Part shown: one piece after another, positions 19,858 through 26,000 of the stretch
Layout of the letters: the number at the start of each line of letters is the position of its first letter
How positions within the stretch are numbered: the first letter of the stretch is position 1
Sequence record: MK962753.1
DNA: 64,000 bases
Reading direction: 5' to 3' (one strand)
Origin: Shigella phage JK32
Position numbers and translations under genes: made by a program
The notes under the pieces: generated by a model
What the model was told of the DNA's origin: nothing
Seen by the model: only the letters and a program-made list of their open reading frames with translations
Database searches by the model: none

Positions 19858-20112
19858 TTAAAAATTCTTGCTATATATGCAAGCCTCATAATCTAGAGGA
19901 TGACCGCCAATCCTACCAGGCTTAATATTCCAACCGCATCGATATTTGCTGACCATGCTAACCGTTTCGGTTCTTAGAGCATTTCTTTGCAAATCATACC
20001 CCCTAAATTCTTGTCTATAAGGACAGTCCGCTTTGCAAGTTGGCGGTTCTACGTCATTTAGCGGGTCAGAAGCAGTTGGCTTTATTATCAATTCTTTGTT
20101 TGCAATAATCAT
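19858..20112 (-). CDS. hypothetical Cys-rich ORF overlapping 3' end of upstream gene
   Basis: Open frame between 59-aa gene and terminator; start uncertain (ATG at 20112 or 20142); no clear SD. Confidence 0.35.
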   Translation of the reverse strand: MIIANKELIIKPTASDPLNDVEPPTCKADCPYRQEFRGYDLQRNALRTETVSMVSKYRCGWNIKPGRIGGHPLDYEACIYSKNF

Positions 20113-20245
20113 AAGCACATCCCATTGAAGGCAATTTAACATCTTCGCAATAAGTGTTGAATCCGTCAAATACAATCACTTCGTATTTGACTCCATCGGC
20201 GATAGCTTTTACTTTATACCATCCATGCTTGTATAAAATCTTCAT
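20066..20245 (-). CDS. hypothetical small Cys-rich protein (59 aa)
   Basis: ATG at 20245 with SD GAGGGAAAT; track start is TTG. Confidence 0.5.
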   Translation of the reverse strand: MKILYKHGWYKVKAIADGVKYEVIVFDGFNTYCEDVKLPSMGCAYDYCKQRIDNKANCF

Positions 20246-20276
20246 CTTTATTTCCCTCAATCTCGTTTCGATGGGT

Positions 20277-20305
20277 GTATTATGCTATACACAGGATCTA
20301 GTGTC
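20277..20305 (-). promoter_or_regulatory. early promoter
   Basis: TTGACA, 17 nt, CATAAT. Confidence 0.65.
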
Positions 20306-20329
20306 AACAACTTTTTAAAATTTTATGCA

Positions 20330-20353
20330 ATAAAAAAGCCGACACTAAGGTCG
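20330..20353 (-). terminator. rho-independent terminator
   Basis: Same hairpin as 19829..19852 followed by U6 on minus. Confidence 0.65.
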
Positions 20354-20363
20354 GCTAATAAAA

Positions 20364-20669
20364 TCATTTAGACAAATAATCATTCTGTGCAATCCGGTCG
20401 GCATGTTCCGGCGTTACGTCAATTGCAATCACTTTAACGCGCGCTTTCTTGACTGAATTTTCTCGTAGCCAGTGCGTGTGACCGTGCACATTTTTATATT
20501 TTGATGCGGTTTCGAAGGTACGGATCGGACCTGGGTAATCAGCGTAAAGGATCTCTAGGTCATCGGTGATGTAAAAATATACGTTGTAATTACTGTTCTC
20601 TAGCTTAAGCAGAGACTTTCGGAACATTGGGAGATTTTCGCGGGTAAATTCAAAGATATTATCTTTCAT
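20364..20669 (-). CDS. HxHW-family small protein, paralog A
   Basis: 101 aa; motifs YFYITDDL ... HGHTHW ... VIAIDV..ADR shared with five neighbouring ORFs. Confidence 0.65.
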   Translation of the reverse strand: MKDNIFEFTRENLPMFRKSLLKLENSNYNVYFYITDDLEILYADYPGPIRTFETASKYKNVHGHTHWLRENSVKKARVKVIAIDVTPEHADRIAQNDYLSK

Positions 20670-20692
20670 AGTATTATCCTCAATAGTTGGAT

Positions 20693-20713
20693 GAAAAGGG
20701 GGCTTAACGCCCC
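20693..20713 (-). terminator. hairpin terminator (likely partial)
   Basis: GGGGGCGTTAAGCCCCC followed by TTTTC on minus. Confidence 0.45.
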
Positions 20714-20719
20714 CATATA

Positions 20720-21007
20720 TTAAAACAGTCCTTCCTGTACACCGTAGTAGAGTTCGTCGCTGATAATTTCATTAATGCGACGGTGTGCATATTCCTGATT
20801 TGCGAAGTTGTCAGCAAGTTCTACTTTAGTTTCGCCGTCATGAGTCCATTTAGTGATAACTTTACCGTCTGCAAATTTGAAGTTGAACTCTTTAGCTACT
20901 GCATCGCGTACCAGACGTGCAAACTTATTGTTGCGGATTGCATTATCGGTTTCGTGTGCAGCGTGAGCAAATTTGTTAACTTTCAGCGTGATAGTGATGT
21001 ATGCCAT
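20720..21007 (-). CDS. hypothetical small protein (95 aa)
   Basis: SD GGAGAA; early promoter upstream. Confidence 0.6.
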   Translation of the reverse strand: MAYITITLKVNKFAHAAHETDNAIRNNKFARLVRDAVAKEFNFKFADGKVITKWTHDGETKVELADNFANQEYAHRRINEIISDELYYGVQEGLF

Positions 21008-21053
21008 AATTTGATTCTCCTAGTTAGAAAGTGTATCTCGTTTCGATGGGTGT

Positions 21054-21082
21054 ATTATGCAATACACCCGATCTTATGTCAA
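21054..21082 (-). promoter_or_regulatory. early promoter
   Basis: TTGACA, 17 nt, CATAAT; upstream gene stop abuts the -35. Confidence 0.65.
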
Positions 21083-21088
21083 CACTTT

Positions 21089-21367
21089 TTATAAAATAAT
21101 TTTTTGATATTTTTCTATGATGTTCGTGTAATCCACATCAACCGCTATCACCGTTGCTTCGAATCCACCGTTTAGCCAATGGCTATGGTCATGATCGTGA
21201 AAGAAACCAAGACCAGTACGAAGACCTTCTTTATATTCGGCGCGTACATTTAGATCATCATCGATAAACAGATAAAACCATGAATTTTTACTAGGATTGA
21301 TGATACAACCTTTCAGATTAGGGAGAATATCACGACTAAGAATAAACTTATCACCTACTTTGAACAT
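21089..21367 (-). CDS. HxHW-family small protein, paralog B
   Basis: ATG at 21367 with SD GTGAGGA; motifs WFYLFIDDDL ... HDHSHW ... VIAVDV. Confidence 0.65.
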   Translation of the reverse strand: MFKVGDKFILSRDILPNLKGCIINPSKNSWFYLFIDDDLNVRAEYKEGLRTGLGFFHDHDHSHWLNGGFEATVIAVDVDYTNIIEKYQKIIL

Positions 21368-21371
21368 AATA

Positions 21372-21692
21372 TTAGTCCTCACTTATAAGGTCAAACCAAT
21401 TGTTTTTCGCATAATGCTTAATGCGTGCTTGATCTGCTTCCGCTGGTGATAGATTCCATGCAACCACTACAACTTCTGACGCATCGTCATCCGTTTCTGA
21501 TACCCAATGATTATGATTCATACAATTGTTTGCTATCGCGTGAGCAAATGATTTCATCACTGGAGACGTATAATCATAGTAACGGATTTTCAGATTTTCA
21601 TCAACGTACAAATAGATCGTATAAGGTTTATATTCAGTAACCAGTAACAGACAGTTACGCAATTCTGGGAAAATATTTTTAGTTAATTTCAT
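21372..21692 (-). CDS. HxHW-family small protein, paralog C
   Basis: 106 aa; YLYVDENL ... HNHW ... VVVAWNL..AEADQ; SD GGAGAA. Confidence 0.65.
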   Translation of the reverse strand: MKLTKNIFPELRNCLLLVTEYKPYTIYLYVDENLKIRYYDYTSPVMKSFAHAIANNCMNHNHWVSETDDDASEVVVVAWNLSPAEADQARIKHYAKNNWFDLISED

Positions 21693-21894
21693 ATTCTAGT
21701 TCTCCGTAATACACGGTAATCCATTTTTCTTCATACTTTGTATCTTTCCAACACACAATCCCGTTTACTGTGCAATCTTTGGAATTGACGAATGATTCAT
21801 ATTGTTCTGCATCTTCCATCATTGCATGAGCGGTCTTTTCATCGAATATATCGCAGATCGCTTTATATGCTCGATAATCTTTAAATTTGCTCAT
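21679..21894 (-). CDS. hypothetical small protein (71 aa), tandem duplicate 1 (MSKFKDY family)
   Basis: N-terminus MSKFKDYRAY, paralogous to adjacent 21897..22106; ATG at 21894. Confidence 0.55.
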   Translation of the reverse strand: MSKFKDYRAYKAICDIFDEKTAHAMMEDAEQYESFVNSKDCTVNGIVCWKDTKYEEKWITVYYGELEYEIN

Positions 21895-21896
21895 AA

Positions 21897-22106
21897 TTAA
21901 GACCACTCAAGAGTTTTTGAAAACACATCTATCCATTGTTGAGTATATGCGGTTTCTTTCCATGATACAATACCAGTCGAATAATGGTTTTTGTTTCCAG
22001 AAAAGGACGGGCATTTTGAGGCATCTTCCATCATCTTTTCGGCGAACTCTGGTTCGTATACTCGCAAGATCTGTTGATATGCTTTATAATCTTTAAATTT
22101 GCTCAT
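21897..22106 (-). CDS. hypothetical small protein (69 aa), tandem duplicate 2 (MSKFKDY family)
   Basis: N-terminus MSKFKDYKAY; SD AAGGTAG. Confidence 0.55.
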   Translation of the reverse strand: MSKFKDYKAYQQILRVYEPEFAEKMMEDASKCPSFSGNKNHYSTGIVSWKETAYTQQWIDVFSKTLEWS

Positions 22107-22371
22107 AATTGTTAACTACCTTATCAGCTTCTTTTATTGTTTTTACATCAACTGCGATAATCCGTAAAGGTTCGTCGAAGGTCCACCAATGATCGTGAAT
22201 ATCGGCTTGTGATTTATCACCAAAGGAATCACGAATATCATTTTTACATTTATAGCTAATGTGACCTTCATAGTCAACATAAAGGTAATTATCGAAAATC
22301 GGCGTTTTTAAGATCATACCGAAAAATCTTTCTTTGTGTGTCTTATCCAGTGTTGCAGTAATTCTCATCAT
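22093..22371 (-). CDS. HxHW-family small protein, paralog D
   Basis: 92 aa; YLYVDYEG ... HDHWW ... IIAVDV..EADK; SD AAGAGGAA. Confidence 0.65.
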   Translation of the reverse strand: MMRITATLDKTHKERFFGMILKTPIFDNYLYVDYEGHISYKCKNDIRDSFGDKSQADIHDHWWTFDEPLRIIAVDVKTIKEADKVVNNYEQI

Positions 22372-22383
22372 AATATATTCCTC

Positions 22384-22563
22384 TTAGAAAGGGATGGTCA
22401 TTTCTTGAGCTTGTACATTCTCGTTAGGATTAAACTTCATCCAACCGATATTGTCTACCAGCATATGCACATTTTTATCATATCCTACGTGAGTAGTCAA
22501 TACTGTATGTGCTTTACCTTCAACGATGATTTCCATGTACTTCTGAACTTCGATAGCTTTCAT
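22384..22563 (-). CDS. hypothetical small protein (59 aa, below track cutoff)
   Basis: Hand-translated ORF starting MKAIEVQKYMEI; SD GGAGAATC; early promoter upstream. Confidence 0.45.
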   Translation of the reverse strand: MKAIEVQKYMEIIVEGKAHTVLTTHVGYDKNVHMLVDNIGWMKFNPNENVQAQEMTIPF

Positions 22564-22595
22564 TTTGATTCTCCGTTTGTTGTCTTGATGGGAGT

Positions 22596-22624
22596 ATCTT
22601 ACTACTCCCTTTAATCATTGTCAA
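22596..22624 (-). promoter_or_regulatory. early promoter with inverted repeat around -10
   Basis: TTGACA, 17 nt, TAAGAT; GGGAGTA ... TACTCCC inverted repeat flanks the -10. Confidence 0.6.
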
Positions 22625-22627
22625 CGA

Positions 22628-22795
22628 TTATTTGTTAATTTCCGGTGCGTTGCTTGGATAGTAACCTTCTTTAACACCCAGATATTTTGCAACCATTCCG
22701 GTGATCTTCTGTGCTACTACGATATCGAATTTCAGGTAGTCTTCACCGTGGTTTGCTACAATGTATGCTTCGCATTCTGCTTTAGTCTGGAACAT
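22628..22795 (-). CDS. hypothetical small protein (55 aa)
   Basis: ATG at 22795 with SD AGGAGAATC; track ORF starts further upstream. Confidence 0.5.
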   Translation of the reverse strand: MFQTKAECEAYIVANHGEDYLKFDIVVAQKITGMVAKYLGVKEGYYPSNAPEINK

Positions 22796-22829
22796 TTTTG
22801 ATTCTCCTATATCTCGTTGGTATGTGTGC

Positions 22830-22859
22830 ATTATAGGGGATCGGTGACCCCCCTGTCAA
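22830..22859 (-). promoter_or_regulatory. early promoter with palindromic spacer
   Basis: TTGACA, spacer GGGGGGTCACCGATCCCC, TATAAT. Confidence 0.65.
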
Positions 22860-22866
22860 CAACTTT

Positions 22867-23169
22867 TTATTCTTCGTCTTTATCTTTATATGCGTATTTC
22901 ATAAATTTGTCTGCCACTTCGTCCGCGTTTTCAGGTTCTACGTCTGACGCTAGGACAACAGCTAGTTCGGTTTTGTCGTTTCCATCATACCAATGATTAT
23001 GAGTGTCGTTTTCTTCGATATAAAACGAATCATTTGGAGATGGGCGACAATATACGTCTAAATTCCCATCGATATAAAAGATCCAATCCGAATACAAAAT
23101 GATTGTTTTAGCCAGATTTTTATTGTCTCTTACAAAAGGTTCCGCGACAAATAGCTTAGTTTGTTCCAT
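22867..23169 (-). CDS. HxHW-family small protein, paralog E
   Basis: ATG at 23169 with SD GAGGAGA; IFYIDGNL ... HNHW ... AVVLASDV..ENADE. Confidence 0.6.
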   Translation of the reverse strand: MEQTKLFVAEPFVRDNKNLAKTIILYSDWIFYIDGNLDVYCRPSPNDSFYIEENDTHNHWYDGNDKTELAVVLASDVEPENADEVADKFMKYAYKDKDEE

Positions 23170-23185
23170 AGTAATCTCCTCAAAA

Positions 23186-23377
23186 TTATACAACTTCGTA
23201 AACTTCCCAATGTCCAACACCGGAACGCTTAACGAAAAGGTTTTCTTTGATGTTATTCATAAACGTCTGGATGGATTTAATGCGGTTGGAAGGTTTCCAG
23301 TCTTCGTTGGCATTGCGGCGATACATAATAACATTACCAGTTCTCTTATATTCAGCAACCATTTTAAGACCACACAT
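23186..23377 (-). CDS. hypothetical small protein (63 aa)
   Basis: SD GAGGA. Confidence 0.5.
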   Translation of the reverse strand: MCGLKMVAEYKRTGNVIMYRRNANEDWKPSNRIKSIQTFMNNIKENLFVKRSGVGHWEVYEVV

Positions 23378-23434
23378 AATATTATCCTCAATTTATGGGA
23401 GAGTATTACCCCTCCCAATGATTGTTATATTACA

Positions 23435-23755
23435 TCACATAAAATGGCGTTTCAATGCTTCTTTTGCGGTTCCGCTAAGACTTTCGATCTCGCCTGGCAT
23501 AACATCAACTGCCAGAACTTCTACAACATCCTCTGACCCCAACCAGTGAGTATGACCTTTGTAGAACTTGATAACCAGACTACCTTCCTCATCCCATTTA
23601 ACGCTATCGCTAGCCCACCACACATCACCGTCGATAAAGTTGATGTAAAGCACACTACGCCACATTGAATTAATTACTTTCAATACTGCGCCTTTCATAT
23701 CTTCCACGGTGTGGTCTTCCATTTTGAAGACCTCGCCTACCTGAACTTTTGCCAT
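23435..23755 (-). CDS. HxHW-family small protein, paralog F
   Basis: 106 aa; YINFIDGDV ... HTHW ... VLAVDV; SD GAGAGGTGA. Confidence 0.65.
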   Translation of the reverse strand: MAKVQVGEVFKMEDHTVEDMKGAVLKVINSMWRSVLYINFIDGDVWWASDSVKWDEEGSLVIKFYKGHTHWLGSEDVVEVLAVDVMPGEIESLSGTAKEALKRHFM

Positions 23756-23772
23756 TTAGTCACCTCTCTTTA

Positions 23773-23952
23773 TTACATAACAATCACGCCAGCCGTTGAA
23801 AGTTGATGTTTCAACTGAGCATTTTCTGCTACTGTCAAATCAATGATTTCTTGTGACGCTGCAATCATATAACCATTGGTGATATTGTTTTGCATCAGTT
23901 CAATGGTTTCTTCGTTGTAGCGGATTTTAGCGATGATTTCGTTGAAGTTCAT
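23773..23952 (-). CDS. hypothetical small protein (59 aa, below track cutoff)
   Basis: Hand-translated ORF starting MNFNEIIAKIRY; SD AGGAGAATC; promoter upstream. Confidence 0.45.
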   Translation of the reverse strand: MNFNEIIAKIRYNEETIELMQNNITNGYMIAASQEIIDLTVAENAQLKHQLSTAGVIVM

Positions 23953-23986
23953 GTTTGATTCTCCTAGTTCGTTTCGGTATGTGTGT

Positions 23987-24015
23987 AGTATAGGGGATCA
24001 CCGATCCCCTGTCAA
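23987..24015 (-). promoter_or_regulatory. early promoter with palindromic spacer
   Basis: TTGACA, spacer GGGGATCGGTGATCCCC, TATACT. Confidence 0.65.
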
Positions 24016-24028
24016 CAACTTTTTTGAA

Positions 24029-24505
24029 TTATTTTTCTTGATGCTCGCGCTCGTACTTTTCGAAATAAAATTCTACTGGCTGGTCGTGGATTGACAGTAA
24101 GCCAAAGCGTTTAGCCGCTCGCAACCCCATATTGCGCTGAATGTACTTCTGGAAGTTCTCGCGTATACACTTACGCCAGTATTCTAAGCCCATACAGCTT
24201 TTATAAAGATTGCATTGCACACACGCCGGATTCATGTTATCAAGTATATCATGCTCCGGTTTATGCATTCCTACAACCTTATACTTCCACGATCCATCAT
24301 CATTACGGGCAATTCGTCCATTTTCATCATAGACTACTTTTGAGCGTCGTAATACTGGTTTGATGTGGTCTGCGTGCCAGCGATCCCCTAGTTCCTCGCC
24401 ACAATAGGCACAACGTCCACCATATTTCATTTTCAGGATCTGGCGTTGCTCTTTCTTTGACAATTTTTTAGGTTTAGGGGCTTTCGCCCCTTCATTATCA
24501 CACAT
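24029..24505 (-). CDS. HNH endonuclease
   Basis: 158 aa; CxxC ... HADH ... N ... CxxC HNH-type motifs; start overlaps ligase stop (ATGTGTGA). Confidence 0.75.
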   Translation of the reverse strand: MCDNEGAKAPKPKKLSKKEQRQILKMKYGGRCAYCGEELGDRWHADHIKPVLRRSKVVYDENGRIARNDDGSWKYKVVGMHKPEHDILDNMNPACVQCNLYKSCMGLEYWRKCIRENFQKYIQRNMGLRAAKRFGLLSIHDQPVEFYFEKYEREHQEK

Positions 24506-26000
24506 CGAATACCTCTTTTACTGTATTTGCAGTGGTCTTGTCGTAGCGAATACGTTTGATGATCGGGAGAAATAAAGAGAACTCCGGTTCATCTTCTTTA
24601 CGTGATTTGCTGCGGATATACCCGTTGCATGTCATCTCAATGACTTTTCCAATCAGGTTATGACGGTCAGCCCATAACATTTCTCGGTCAAGTTCATTTC
24701 GACGATCGAACGGAATTACACGTTCGATACCATCATCACCTTTTTCGGTTGTAGTGTCGGTTAATCCCGATCCGGTGTTAGTCATCATTCGTCCACACGC
24801 ACTACGGACAGTAAAACCGCCTACCTTATTGGGGTCTTTACTATGCGGATATACATCAACAATTTCCGCGTCGAAGTCAATCACTTCTTTAAATTTAACC
24901 TGATCTTTACTACGGCGATCTTCAAATACACCATGCAGATTTTTAAGGATAATACCTTCTAAGCCCATGTTTACATAGCGATGATATACTTCGCGAGCTT
25001 CATCGATATTGTTAACTACAGTATTTTCGATTATCTGAACACGAGGATCGTTAAGTTCTTCAACAATCTGTTTTAGTTCTTCGAATCGATCTTTATATTG
25101 CTTCGTTGCTTTCTCGTTTCCGTAATACACATCACGGTCGATAACATCCCAGACAGTGTAAACAATACATTGGGCTTCTTCTTTTGGAATAGTTCCTTTC
25201 AGTGATTTGTTGAGGATACCATTTCCGGTCTGACGATCTGCAACAACGGATTCTTTCACTGCTTCCGCTACTGGCGTTAATGGCATTTCCTCTTCTTCAA
25301 ATATCCATGACAGAGTACCATCATAAACGCTCTCAACGAAGTTCTGCGCTGGTGTTTGCGAAAGGGTAGGCATATATACCAATTCGCCATCTAGAACAAT
25401 TCCACGGCCTCGTAGACGCTCTAAAACCGCAAACAAATCATCAAGCCCCTGATAGGTATTACCTGAACGGGTATAGATTGCTAATGTTTCCCCGTCAATA
25501 TCAGCCATACCACGAGCGCCATCGCTTTTAAGTTGTGCATATGCAGGATATTTGATATTAGCAATGGCCTTATCAGAATATGACGATGCAAGGTGGCACG
25601 GCTGCTGGGGGATCAGTTTCTTCCATACCTTGTTTGCAGTGGTAGCGGAACAACCGCATTCCAGATCACGATTCAGGACCATCATTGCAACTTTAGCATC
25701 ATCTTCTGACAAGCAAGTCAGAGTATCGGTAACTAGCTGTAATGCTGCATTACCAGTTACTTGACGCGTGGCAAGTTTATTTTTAAAGACCTGTAATGCA
25801 CCGGATAAAGACAATACAGACGAATAACGCGATGGTTTATCGTATTTCTTTACGCCAAACGTAACCTGTTTGCAATATGCCAGATAAAAGCATTCTTTCA
25901 GCGTTTCATTGCTTGCAGATTCTTTCAGAATCTTTTCTTTCAGCGATGTTTTGTCTGTTGCTGCAAGCTGATTAATGATATTAAGAATTGACATTTTCAC
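24498..26000 (-). CDS. 30: ATP-dependent DNA ligase gp30
   Basis: 500 aa (T4 487 aa); adenylation motif KSDGAR; position after alt region as in T4. Confidence 0.9.
   Translation of the reverse strand: MKMSILNIINQLAATDKTSLKEKILKESASNETLKECFYLAYCKQVTFGVKKYDKPSRYSSVLSLSGALQVFKNKLATRQVTGNAALQLVTDTLTCLSEDDAKVAMMVLNRDLECGCSATTANKVWKKLIPQQPCHLASSYSDKAIANIKYPAYAQLKSDGARGMADIDGETLAIYTRSGNTYQGLDDLFAVLERLRGRGIVLDGELVYMPTLSQTPAQNFVESVYDGTLSWIFEEEEMPLTPVAEAVKESVVADRQTGNGILNKSLKGTIPKEEAQCIVYTVWDVIDRDVYYGNEKATKQYKDRFEELKQIVEELNDPRVQIIENTVVNNIDEAREVYHRYVNMGLEGIILKNLHGVFEDRRSKDQVKFKEVIDFDAEIVDVYPHSKDPNKVGGFTVRSACGRMMTNTGSGLTDTTTEKGDDGIERVIPFDRRNELDREMLWADRHNLIGKVIEMTCNGYIRSKSRKEDEPEFSLFLPIIKRIRYDKTTANTVKEVFDV

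What the first reader, a model, noticed from the sequence alone, without database searches (positions are those of the whole stretch)
21679..22106. Adjacent tandem duplicate genes (MSKFKDY family)
Two neighbouring ORFs begin MSKFKDYRAYKAI... and MSKFKDYKAYQQIL..., share internal MMEDA and W-K-D/E-T motifs, and are joined by a TAATTATG junction - a recent tandem duplication embedded within the HxHW paralog array.
Basis: seen in the sequence. Interest (0 to 1): 0.35.

Follow-up and report, generated by a model that had tools for sequence, protein, structure and literature searches.

The report
Old tandem paralogs, small phage early genes
Two neighbouring genes for ~70-residue proteins in a T4-like coliphage (genus Krischvirus) are real but ancient tandem copies of an uncharacterised phage gene family; this is an ordinary feature of the variable regions of such phages, and the only notable point is that one copy is fixed while the other is swapped, broken or lost between relatives.

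Summary
On the minus strand, gene B (22106-21897, 69 aa) and gene A (21894-21679, 71 aa) both start MSKFKDY, share MMEDA and W-K-D/E-T, and meet at TAATTATG. They are 46% identical (BLASTP E 2e-21; 26 SD above shuffles).

"Recent" is wrong. DNA identity is 58%, synonymous sites are saturated (dS about 1.8), and both copies occur as distinct orthologues across Krischvirus (RB49, Phi1, GEC-3S).

B is present in all 56 Krischvirus records at 88-100% identity. The A slot is variable:
- It holds two deep allele lineages that are synonymously saturated against each other, although the flanking genes differ by dS of only about 0.1.
- There are mosaic alleles and premature stops.
- A is absent in JSE and KMB43.

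Both genes belong to phrog_8471, of unknown function. There is no Pfam or NCBIfam match and no fold match in PDB. AlphaFold gives a confident four-helix model (pLDDT 92). Single-copy relatives lie in the early regions of T7-like Enterobacter, Yersinia, Serratia and Aeromonas phages and in other T4-like phages.

The pair sits in a six-gene early transcription unit bounded by promoter/stem-loop cassettes, inside a real array of "HxHW" paralogs.

Function is inferred only: a non-enzymatic early accessory protein that binds a host or defence factor.

Low interest; new member of a known kind.

The parts
21897..22106 (-). Gene B: the upstream copy (69 aa, MSKFKDYKAYQQIL...). This is the conserved, fixed paralog.
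   Evidence: ORF. phrog_8471 at E 1e-36. Present in all 56 Krischvirus records at 88-100% aa identity. dN/dS between orthologues is 0.07-0.16.
21679..21894 (-). Gene A: the downstream copy (71 aa from the ATG at 21894; the ORF list extends it to a GTG at 21906). This is the variable, exchangeable paralog, present here as allele lineage A1.
   Evidence: ORF. phrog_8471 at E 7e-36. 21 records carry A1 (>=95% identity) and 32 carry A2 (61-65%). A is absent from JSE (two accessions) and KMB43. Premature stops occur in G2494 and FL15. AlphaFold2 gives pLDDT 91.6 and four helices.
21892..21899 (-). TAATTATG junction: the B stop (TAA), two bases, then the A start (ATG).
   Evidence: The same junction is kept in JSE and KMB43, where the ATG instead starts an HxHW gene.
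21809..21898 (-). DNA repeat copy 1: the 5' 86 nt of gene A plus 4 nt upstream.
   Evidence: the repeat finder family D1, 90 nt, 73% identity, period 212.
22021..22110 (-). DNA repeat copy 2: the 5' 86 nt of gene B plus 4 nt upstream.
   Evidence: the repeat finder family D1. The first 30 coding nt are 28/30 identical to gene A.
22093..22371 (-). HxHW paralog (92 aa). Its stop overlaps the start of gene B by 14 nt.
   Evidence: phrog_15972; paralogy.
21372..21692 (-). HxHW paralog (106 aa). Its start overlaps the end of gene A by 14 nt.
   Evidence: phrog_9345; paralogy. AlphaFold2 pLDDT 88 with no PDB fold match. The same order, family member followed by an HxHW gene, is seen in metagenome contig L015.
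21089..21382 (-). HxHW paralog (92-97 aa), the last gene of the transcription unit.
   Evidence: phrog_17255.
22384..22563 (-). First gene of the unit (59 aa, function unknown).
   Evidence: phrog_15082.
22596..22624 (-). Sigma-70-type early promoter (TTGACA-17-TAAGAT) with the overlapping stem-loop GGGAGTA...TACTCCC. This PeSL-type cassette heads the six-gene unit.
   Evidence: Promoter scan and sequence. A promoter is annotated at the equivalent site in GEC-3S. The PeSL concept comes from PMC2839356.
21054..21082 (-). The next PeSL-type promoter (TTGACA-17-CATAAT) with the stem-loop GGGTGTATTGCATAATACACCC. It marks the downstream boundary of the unit.
   Evidence: both the promoter and the terminator-like hairpin at 21047-21070. 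A promoter is annotated at the equivalent site in GEC-3S.

Best explanation
The window comes from a Krischvirus, an RB49/Phi1/GEC-3S-type T4-like coliphage. Genes B and A are old tandem paralogs of the uncharacterised phage family phrog_8471. Each encodes a ~70-residue four-helix protein with no catalytic signature.

They are the third and fourth genes of a six-gene early unit: a 59-aa ORF, HxHW, B, A, HxHW, HxHW. The unit is driven by a host-sigma-70-type promoter/stem-loop cassette (PeSL) in the hyperplastic region downstream of DNA ligase. Gene boundaries are tight (14-nt overlaps and a 2-nt gap), which suggests translational coupling.

The two copies have different fates. B is fixed and conserved across the genus. 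A occupies a slot that recombination repeatedly replaces, remodels, inactivates or deletes, with break-points at the conserved MSKFKDY/TAATTATG start region and at the 3' gene boundary.

Shown: paralogy, age, purifying selection within each lineage, cassette-like replacement of A, early-promoter context, a confident helical fold, and the narrow distribution in T4-like and T7-like enterobacterial and Aeromonas phages.

Inferred, not shown: the proteins act stoichiometrically, by binding a host or host-defence component early in infection (host take-over or counter-defence). On this reading the second, variable copy widens or shifts target specificity.
For: Identity of the phage: 96.5% DNA identity to phage Brandy and 50 further Krischvirus records.

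Paralogy: E 2e-21, z = 26, a 90-nt DNA repeat, and the same PHROG family.

Age: dS about 1.8 between A and B, and both copies occur as distinct orthologues in RB49, GEC-3S, ECD7, Skers and others.

Selection: dN/dS is 0.04-0.20 within the A1, A2 and B lineages.

A as a cassette:
- Window against Skers is 95-100% identical in the flanks and 57-75% only across 21870-21680.
- A1 against A2 has dS about 1.9, while in the same phage pair B has dS 0.11 and the flanking HxHW gene 0.10.
- Mosaic alleles exist: P0006, P0009 and P0012.
- There are premature stops in G2494 and FL15, a remodelled start in RB49, and A is missing in JSE and KMB43.

Early expression context: consensus promoters and promoters annotated in GEC-3S. 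PeSL promoter and terminator activity was shown experimentally for Phi1/RB49 in PMC2839356.

Fold: pLDDT 91.6.

Distribution and context of relatives:
- Only 18 representatives in 1.8 billion proteins.
- Koutsourovirus early region.
- T7-like contigs near an S-AdoMet lyase gene and a pentapeptide-repeat gene.
- The ligase-alt region of another T4-like phage.
- Yersinia, Serratia and Aeromonas podophages.

Precedent for small T4 ORFans that inhibit host enzymes: gene 55.2, PMC4396842.
Against: - No experiment or annotated homologue says what the proteins bind. Every database name is 'hypothetical protein'.
- Position in an early, variable region is typical of, but not specific to, counter-defence genes.
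- Sister status of A and B has weak bootstrap support (14%).
- The promoter calls are consensus matches in this window and were not measured here.
Confidence: 0.6

Rival explanations
1. The MSKFKDY proteins are dedicated partners of the flanking HxHW proteins, for example as a regulator, chaperone or complex subunit. On this reading the duplication simply tracks the expansion of the HxHW array.
For: B overlaps the upstream HxHW gene by 14 nt, and A overlaps the downstream HxHW gene by 14 nt. In an unrelated T4-like metagenome contig (L015) a family member is again followed directly by an HxHW gene. In JSE the A slot is occupied by an HxHW gene at the same junction.
Against: T7-like phages carry the family with no H-x-H-W protein nearby. 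In T4-like contig L016 the single family member is flanked by other genes, not by HxHW genes. There are six HxHW genes and only two MSKFKDY genes. JSE and KMB43 keep their HxHW genes without A.
Confidence: 0.15
2. A recent tandem duplication, with the copies still nearly redundant.
For: The first 21 coding nucleotides are identical and the first 30 are 28/30 identical. The bases before each ATG are shared (AATTATG).
Against: Overall DNA identity is 58% and synonymous sites are saturated. Separate A and B orthologues occur throughout the genus. Net charge has diverged: -6 for A against 0 for B.
Confidence: 0.03
3. The two genes were acquired independently by modular (PeSL or junction-mediated) shuffling from different donor phages, not duplicated in place.
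For: The A slot demonstrably receives foreign alleles: A1 against A2 has dS about 1.9 inside flanks with dS about 0.1. Bootstrap support for A+B as sisters is only 14%. The region is a documented shuffling hot-spot (PMC2839356).
Against: A and B are each other's best matches among all known family members, at 46% against 28-37% to the T7-like members. They share the exact MSKFKDY N-terminus and their length. No other phage group shows that N-terminus.
Confidence: 0.15
4. The proteins bind nucleic acid or RNA polymerase as small transcription or take-over factors, not as counter-defence proteins.
Confidence: 0.12

Closest known systems
RB49 ORF201/ORF202 (RB49p201/p202), Phi1 p201/p202, GEC-3S BN201_0204/0205: 'hypothetical proteins' grouped as PHROG family phrog_8471
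   Same: These are direct orthologues, 88-100% identical for B and 61-100% for A. They have the same order, the same junction and the same neighbours.
   Different: Nothing functional is known for any of them. The window carries the A1 allele, as in Phi1, GEC-3S and ECD7. It does not carry the RB49-type A2 allele or the RB49-type read-through of the B stop codon.
PeSL-mediated modular shuffling of ORFans in the hyperplastic regions of T4-type phages (Arbiol et al. 2010, PMC2839356; Comeau et al. 2014, PMC4122927)
   Same: Same phage group and same kind of region. The unit that holds the pair is bounded by sigma-70 promoter plus stem-loop cassettes. Gene content differs between close relatives through replacement and deletion.
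   Different: The exchange of gene A does not occur at PeSLs. It occurs at gene boundaries inside the unit, at the conserved MSKFKDY/TAATTATG start and at the 3' overlap with the next gene. The paper's text as held does not mention ORF201/202 or paralogy.
Small early T4 ORFan proteins that inhibit host factors, for example T4 55.2 against topoisomerase I (PMC4396842)
   Same: A small, non-essential-looking ORFan in a T4-type genome. The proposed mode of action, stoichiometric binding of a host protein, is the same kind.
   Different: There is no sequence or fold relationship. The target of the present family is unknown and the analogy is only an inference.
Single-copy phrog_8471 members in T7-like phages (Enterobacter phage SDFMU_Pec WNO29623, Yersinia phage fHe-Yen3-01, ISAO8, Serratia Kaonashi, Aeromonas phiAS7 and Atoyac phages)
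   Same: The same family by HMM (E 1e-7 to 6e-30) and by predicted structure (Foldseek probability 1.0). All lie among small early genes.
   Different: They are single-copy, 28-37% identical, often have a basic N-terminal extension or a C-terminal KCSG motif, and have no HxHW neighbours.

Membership tests
phrog_8471 (PHROGs v4, unknown function) | Significant full-length match to the family HMM | tested here: met
   Gene A scores E 7.4e-36 over residues 1-69 of 71. Gene B scores E 1.1e-36 over residues 1-68 of 69. Distant members also match.
phrog_8471 (PHROGs v4, unknown function) | Conserved core motif: K-[FW]-K-D, A-x-x-M-M-E-D-A, F, I-V-x-W-x-x-T-x-Y-x-x-x-W | tested here: met
   Invariant or near-invariant columns in the 27-sequence alignment are K3, K5, A22, M25, M26, E27, A29, F35, I46, V47, W49, T52 and W58. 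All are present in both A and B.
Recent tandem duplicate | High nucleotide identity and low synonymous divergence between the copies | tested here: not met
   58% DNA identity, third positions 53%, pS 0.68, dS about 1.8.
Recent tandem duplicate | Close relatives still carry the unduplicated state, with the single gene equally similar to both copies | tested here: not met
   The single-copy phages JSE and KMB43 carry a clear B orthologue (98-100% to B, 44-46% to A). That pattern indicates loss or replacement of A, not a pre-duplication state.
Tandem paralogs formed in situ | The copies are each other's closest relatives (monophyly) | tested here: inconclusive
   A and B are the best mutual matches (46%) and group together in a neighbour-joining tree, but with only 14% bootstrap support on 68 columns.
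PeSL-bounded early cassette of T4-type hyperplastic regions | Sigma-70 consensus promoter combined with an adjacent or overlapping stem-loop, upstream of ORFans | tested here: met
   TTGACA-N17-TAAGAT at 22624-22596 with the GGGAGTA/TACTCCC hairpin. TTGACA-N17-CATAAT at 21082-21054 with a 10-bp hairpin. TTGACA-N18-TATAAT at 22859-22830 with a polyG/polyC hairpin. Promoters are annotated at the same places in GEC-3S. Activity was not measured here.
Known anti-defence or host take-over proteins with solved structures (Ocr, Tad1/2, Acb2, Gad, Acr families, Dmd and others) | Sequence or fold similarity to a characterised member | tested here: not met
   [not shown]
Known anti-defence or host take-over proteins (functional class) | Demonstrated inhibition of a host factor or defence system | not testable with these tools
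   This needs genetics or biochemistry. No paper mentions these genes.
Any Pfam / NCBIfam family | Score above the curated cut-off | tested here: not met
   No hit reaches a curated cut-off for A, B or the distant members.

The most novel reading that the evidence does not exclude
phrog_8471 is a new family of early counter-defence (or host take-over) proteins shared horizontally between T4-like and T7-like phages of Enterobacteria and Aeromonas. Krischviruses keep one fixed copy (B) plus one rapidly exchanged 'specificity' copy (A1, A2, mosaic or none). Allele swapping at the A slot would then tune which variant of a polymorphic host target or defence system the phage can neutralise.
Probability: 0.3. 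Interest if true: 0.5.

Novelty: new member of a known kind. Interest (0 to 1): 0.2.

Why it matters
As it stands, this is a routine case of paralogy among orphan genes in a hyperplastic region of a T4-type phage, and it changes nothing in the field.

Its modest value lies in four points:
- It corrects the 'recent duplication' reading.
- It gives a clean example of gene-by-gene cassette replacement inside a transcription unit. The break-points fall at a conserved start-codon junction, not at the PeSL elements described for these phages.
- It shows that a confident four-helix fold with no solved relative recurs in the early regions of two unrelated phage groups.
- It offers a natural set of alleles (B only, B+A1, B+A2, and A pseudogenes) that could be used to look for a host-range or defence-evasion phenotype.

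Tried and rejected
- Pfam, NCBIfam and a PDB sequence profile for A, B and distant members gave nothing above threshold.
- I suspected that a 61-aa neighbour in the Koutsourovirus-like contig L008 was a Tad2/DUF2829 protein, which would have marked an anti-defence island. Pfam gave no hit, so I dropped the idea.
- I looked for an obligate link to HxHW proteins. No H-x-H-W proteins occur next to the T7-like members.
- Literature searches for RB49p201/p202, phrog_8471 and the protein accessions returned zero papers. The PeSL paper does not mention these ORFs in the text held.
- IMG/VR yielded only two extra loci, both Krischvirus.
- Rfam found nothing in 20000-24200 (best E 0.83). The plus-strand ORFs across the pair (for example 21887-22096) are antisense shadows of the real genes.
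- The first neighbour-joining tree run timed out and was repeated with fewer replicates.

Full report
**What the window is**

The 3.5 kb around the finding matches 58 phage records, 50 of them over at least 80% of its length and all at 80-99% identity. The best is phage Brandy at 96.5%. All are Krischvirus, that is RB49/Phi1/GEC-3S/JSE-type T4-like coliphages. The genes here run on the minus strand. They lie downstream of the DNA ligase gene (24498-26000) and an HNH endonuclease gene (24029-24505). In another T4-like contig the same region runs from ligase to the Alt ADP-ribosyltransferase gene.

**Check of the observation**

Gene B is 22106->21897 (69 aa). Gene A is 21894->21679 (71 aa). The ORF lister extends A to a GTG at 21906, but the ATG aligns with the start of B. 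Both begin MSKFKDY, both have MMEDA at residues 25-29, and they carry CWKDT and SWKET respectively at residues 48-52. The junction reads TAATTATG on the coding strand.

BLASTP gives 31/68 identities (46%), no gaps, E 2e-21. The local alignment score is 26 standard deviations above 2000 shuffles. The repeat finder independently reports a 90-nt direct repeat at 73% identity with a 212-nt period, covering the 5' third of each gene plus four upstream bases.

The statement that the pair lies inside an 'HxHW' paralog array is also correct. Six ORFs of 92-106 aa share 25-31% identity, with E-values down to 3e-14 and an invariant H-x-H-W motif.

**Is the duplication recent? No.**

- Over 68 ungapped codons the DNA is 58% identical and third positions are only 53% identical.
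- Nei-Gojobori gives pS 0.68 (dS about 1.8, saturated) and dN 0.50.
- Both copies exist as separate orthologues in 53 of 56 Krischvirus records, including RB49, Phi1, GEC-3S, ECD7, Skers and E26.
- Only the first 30 coding nucleotides are unusually similar (28/30, of which 21 are identical in a row). This could reflect constraint on the N-terminal peptide and initiation region, or local gene conversion. In Skers, by my count from the sequences printed, the same comparison gives about 24/30, so the effect is not uniform.

In a neighbour-joining tree of 23 family members, the A clade and the B clade each have 100% bootstrap support. Their union, although recovered, has only 14%. In-situ duplication is the parsimonious reading, because A and B are best mutual matches, share a unique N-terminus and have the same length. 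Independent acquisition is not excluded.

**The two copies behave differently**

B is present in all 56 Krischvirus records at 88-100% identity, with dN/dS of 0.07-0.16.

The A slot is polymorphic:
- 21 records carry the window's allele lineage (A1, at least 95% identity) and 32 carry a second lineage (A2, 61-65%).
- A1 against A2 is synonymously saturated (dS about 1.9). In the same two phages B differs by dS 0.11 and the flanking HxHW gene by 0.10.
- A sliding comparison of the window with Skers shows 95-100% identity everywhere except 57-75% across 21870-21680, which is the body of gene A. This pattern indicates cassette replacement, not fast in-place evolution. Within each A lineage dN/dS is 0.04-0.20, so the gene is functional where it is intact.
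- Metagenomic alleles P0006, P0009 and P0012 are visible mosaics of B-like, A1-like and A2-like segments.
- A has a stop at codon 8 in G2494 and a stop at W58 in FL15.
- In RB49-type phages a small indel removes the B stop codon, so B reads on to 87 aa, and the start of A2 is remodelled.
- In JSE and KMB43, A is absent. The same ...TAATTATG junction leads straight into an HxHW gene, and everything down to about 21100 is replaced.

**Transcription context**

Consensus sigma-70 promoters combined with hairpins stand at 22859-22830, 22624-22596 and 21082-21054 on the minus strand. Promoters are annotated at the equivalent GEC-3S positions. These match the PeSL (promoter-early stem-loop) cassettes that Arbiol et al. 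showed to act as promoters and terminators and to flank shuffled ORFans in Phi1 and RB49 (PMC2839356).

The pair therefore sits in a six-gene early unit: a 59-aa ORF, HxHW-92, B, A, HxHW-106, HxHW-97. HxHW-92 overlaps B by 14 nt, B and A are 2 nt apart, and A overlaps HxHW-106 by 14 nt. Translational coupling is an inference from this spacing.

Notably, the replacement of A uses gene-boundary break-points inside the unit, not the PeSLs.

**What the proteins are**

Both match phrog_8471 (unknown function) at E about 1e-36. There is no Pfam, NCBIfam or PDB sequence match.

An exhaustive HMM search of 1.84 billion representative proteins found only 18 at E <= 1e-3. The family is small and appears confined to phages:
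- Krischvirus.
- Other T4-like contigs: L015, where the member is again followed by an HxHW gene, and L016, in the ligase-alt region.
- T7-like phages, where a single copy lies among small early genes upstream of primase/helicase. Examples are Koutsourovirus SDFMU_Pec, contigs with an S-AdoMet lyase gene and a pentapeptide-repeat gene nearby, Yersinia fHe-Yen3-01 and ISAO8, Serratia Kaonashi, and the Aeromonas Atoyac phages and phiAS7.

Many T7-like members add a basic N-terminal extension, MIKRKRKINK.

**How it most likely works**

What is shown: these are small, folded, selected, non-enzymatic-looking proteins behind early promoters, in the most plastic part of the genome, and in the early regions of two unrelated phage groups that infect related hosts.

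What is inferred: they act by binding a host or host-defence component soon after infection, as do other small T4 ORFan products such as 55.2 (PMC4396842). On this view the conserved copy B provides a constant function and the swappable copy A provides a variable specificity. I give the structural and evolutionary description about 0.9 and the functional inference about 0.3-0.4.

The rivals are:
- An obligate partner of the HxHW proteins. This is weakened by the T7-like members that lack any HxHW neighbour.
- Independent acquisition of the two genes.

**Comparison with what is known, and verdict**

The genes are orthologues of RB49 ORF201/202 and their equivalents, annotated everywhere as hypothetical. 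I found no paper that mentions them. Tandem paralogs and cassette exchange of ORFans in T4-type hyperplastic regions are a known kind of thing.

This is therefore a new, uncharacterised member of that kind, with a neat fixed-copy and variable-copy asymmetry. Interest is low (0.2). The most novel reading still open, a new shared counter-defence family with a specificity-swapping second copy, has a probability of about 0.3.

Noticed in passing
[not shown]
   Followed up: partly
window 22830-22859, 22596-22624, 21054-21082, 23987-24015 (minus strand); exact 16-nt repeat TGTCAACAACTTTTTA at 20302-20317 and 22854-22869: PeSL-type cassettes, each a consensus sigma-70 promoter with an overlapping or adjacent G/C-rich hairpin, punctuate the region. 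They match the mobile regulatory cassettes described for Phi1 and RB49.
   Followed up: partly
L002 (RB49) 1266-1707; also L011 (FL37) and L012 (FL15): In RB49-type phages a small indel removes the stop codon of gene B. B then reads 87 aa into gene A, and the start of A2 is rebuilt (MGIQSQFKDY...). The two genes overlap by about 40 nt instead of being separated by 2 nt.
   Followed up: partly
L013 (G2494) 1501-1713; L012 (FL15) 1501-1692: Gene A carries a premature stop at codon 8 in phage G2494, and a stop replacing the conserved W58 in phage FL15. The variable copy is decaying in some isolates.
   Followed up: yes
L003 (JSE) 1701-2386; L014 (KMB43): In JSE and KMB43, gene A and the two following HxHW genes are replaced by two different HxHW alleles (111 aa each). 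These start at exactly the same TAATTATG junction. The replaced block corresponds to window positions of about 21900-21100.
   Followed up: partly
P0005 (metagenome protein, 66 aa, on a 123-kb contig): A gene B variant whose C-terminal half is frameshifted (MSKFKDYKAYQQILRVYDADFAEKMMEDASKCPSFSGNKKSLFYWDC...). This is either a natural B pseudogene or an assembly error. If real, it would be the only case seen where B is damaged.
   Followed up: no
L007 3093-3308 and L008 6435-6614: In two different T7-like contigs a DUF7267 gene lies just downstream of the phrog_8471 member. This may be a conserved neighbourhood of two uncharacterised early genes.
   Followed up: no
window 24029-24505 (minus strand): An HNH-type endonuclease ORF (158 aa) overlaps the 3' end of the DNA ligase gene by 8 nt. 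The same ligase-then-HNH arrangement occurs in T4-like contig L016.
   Followed up: no
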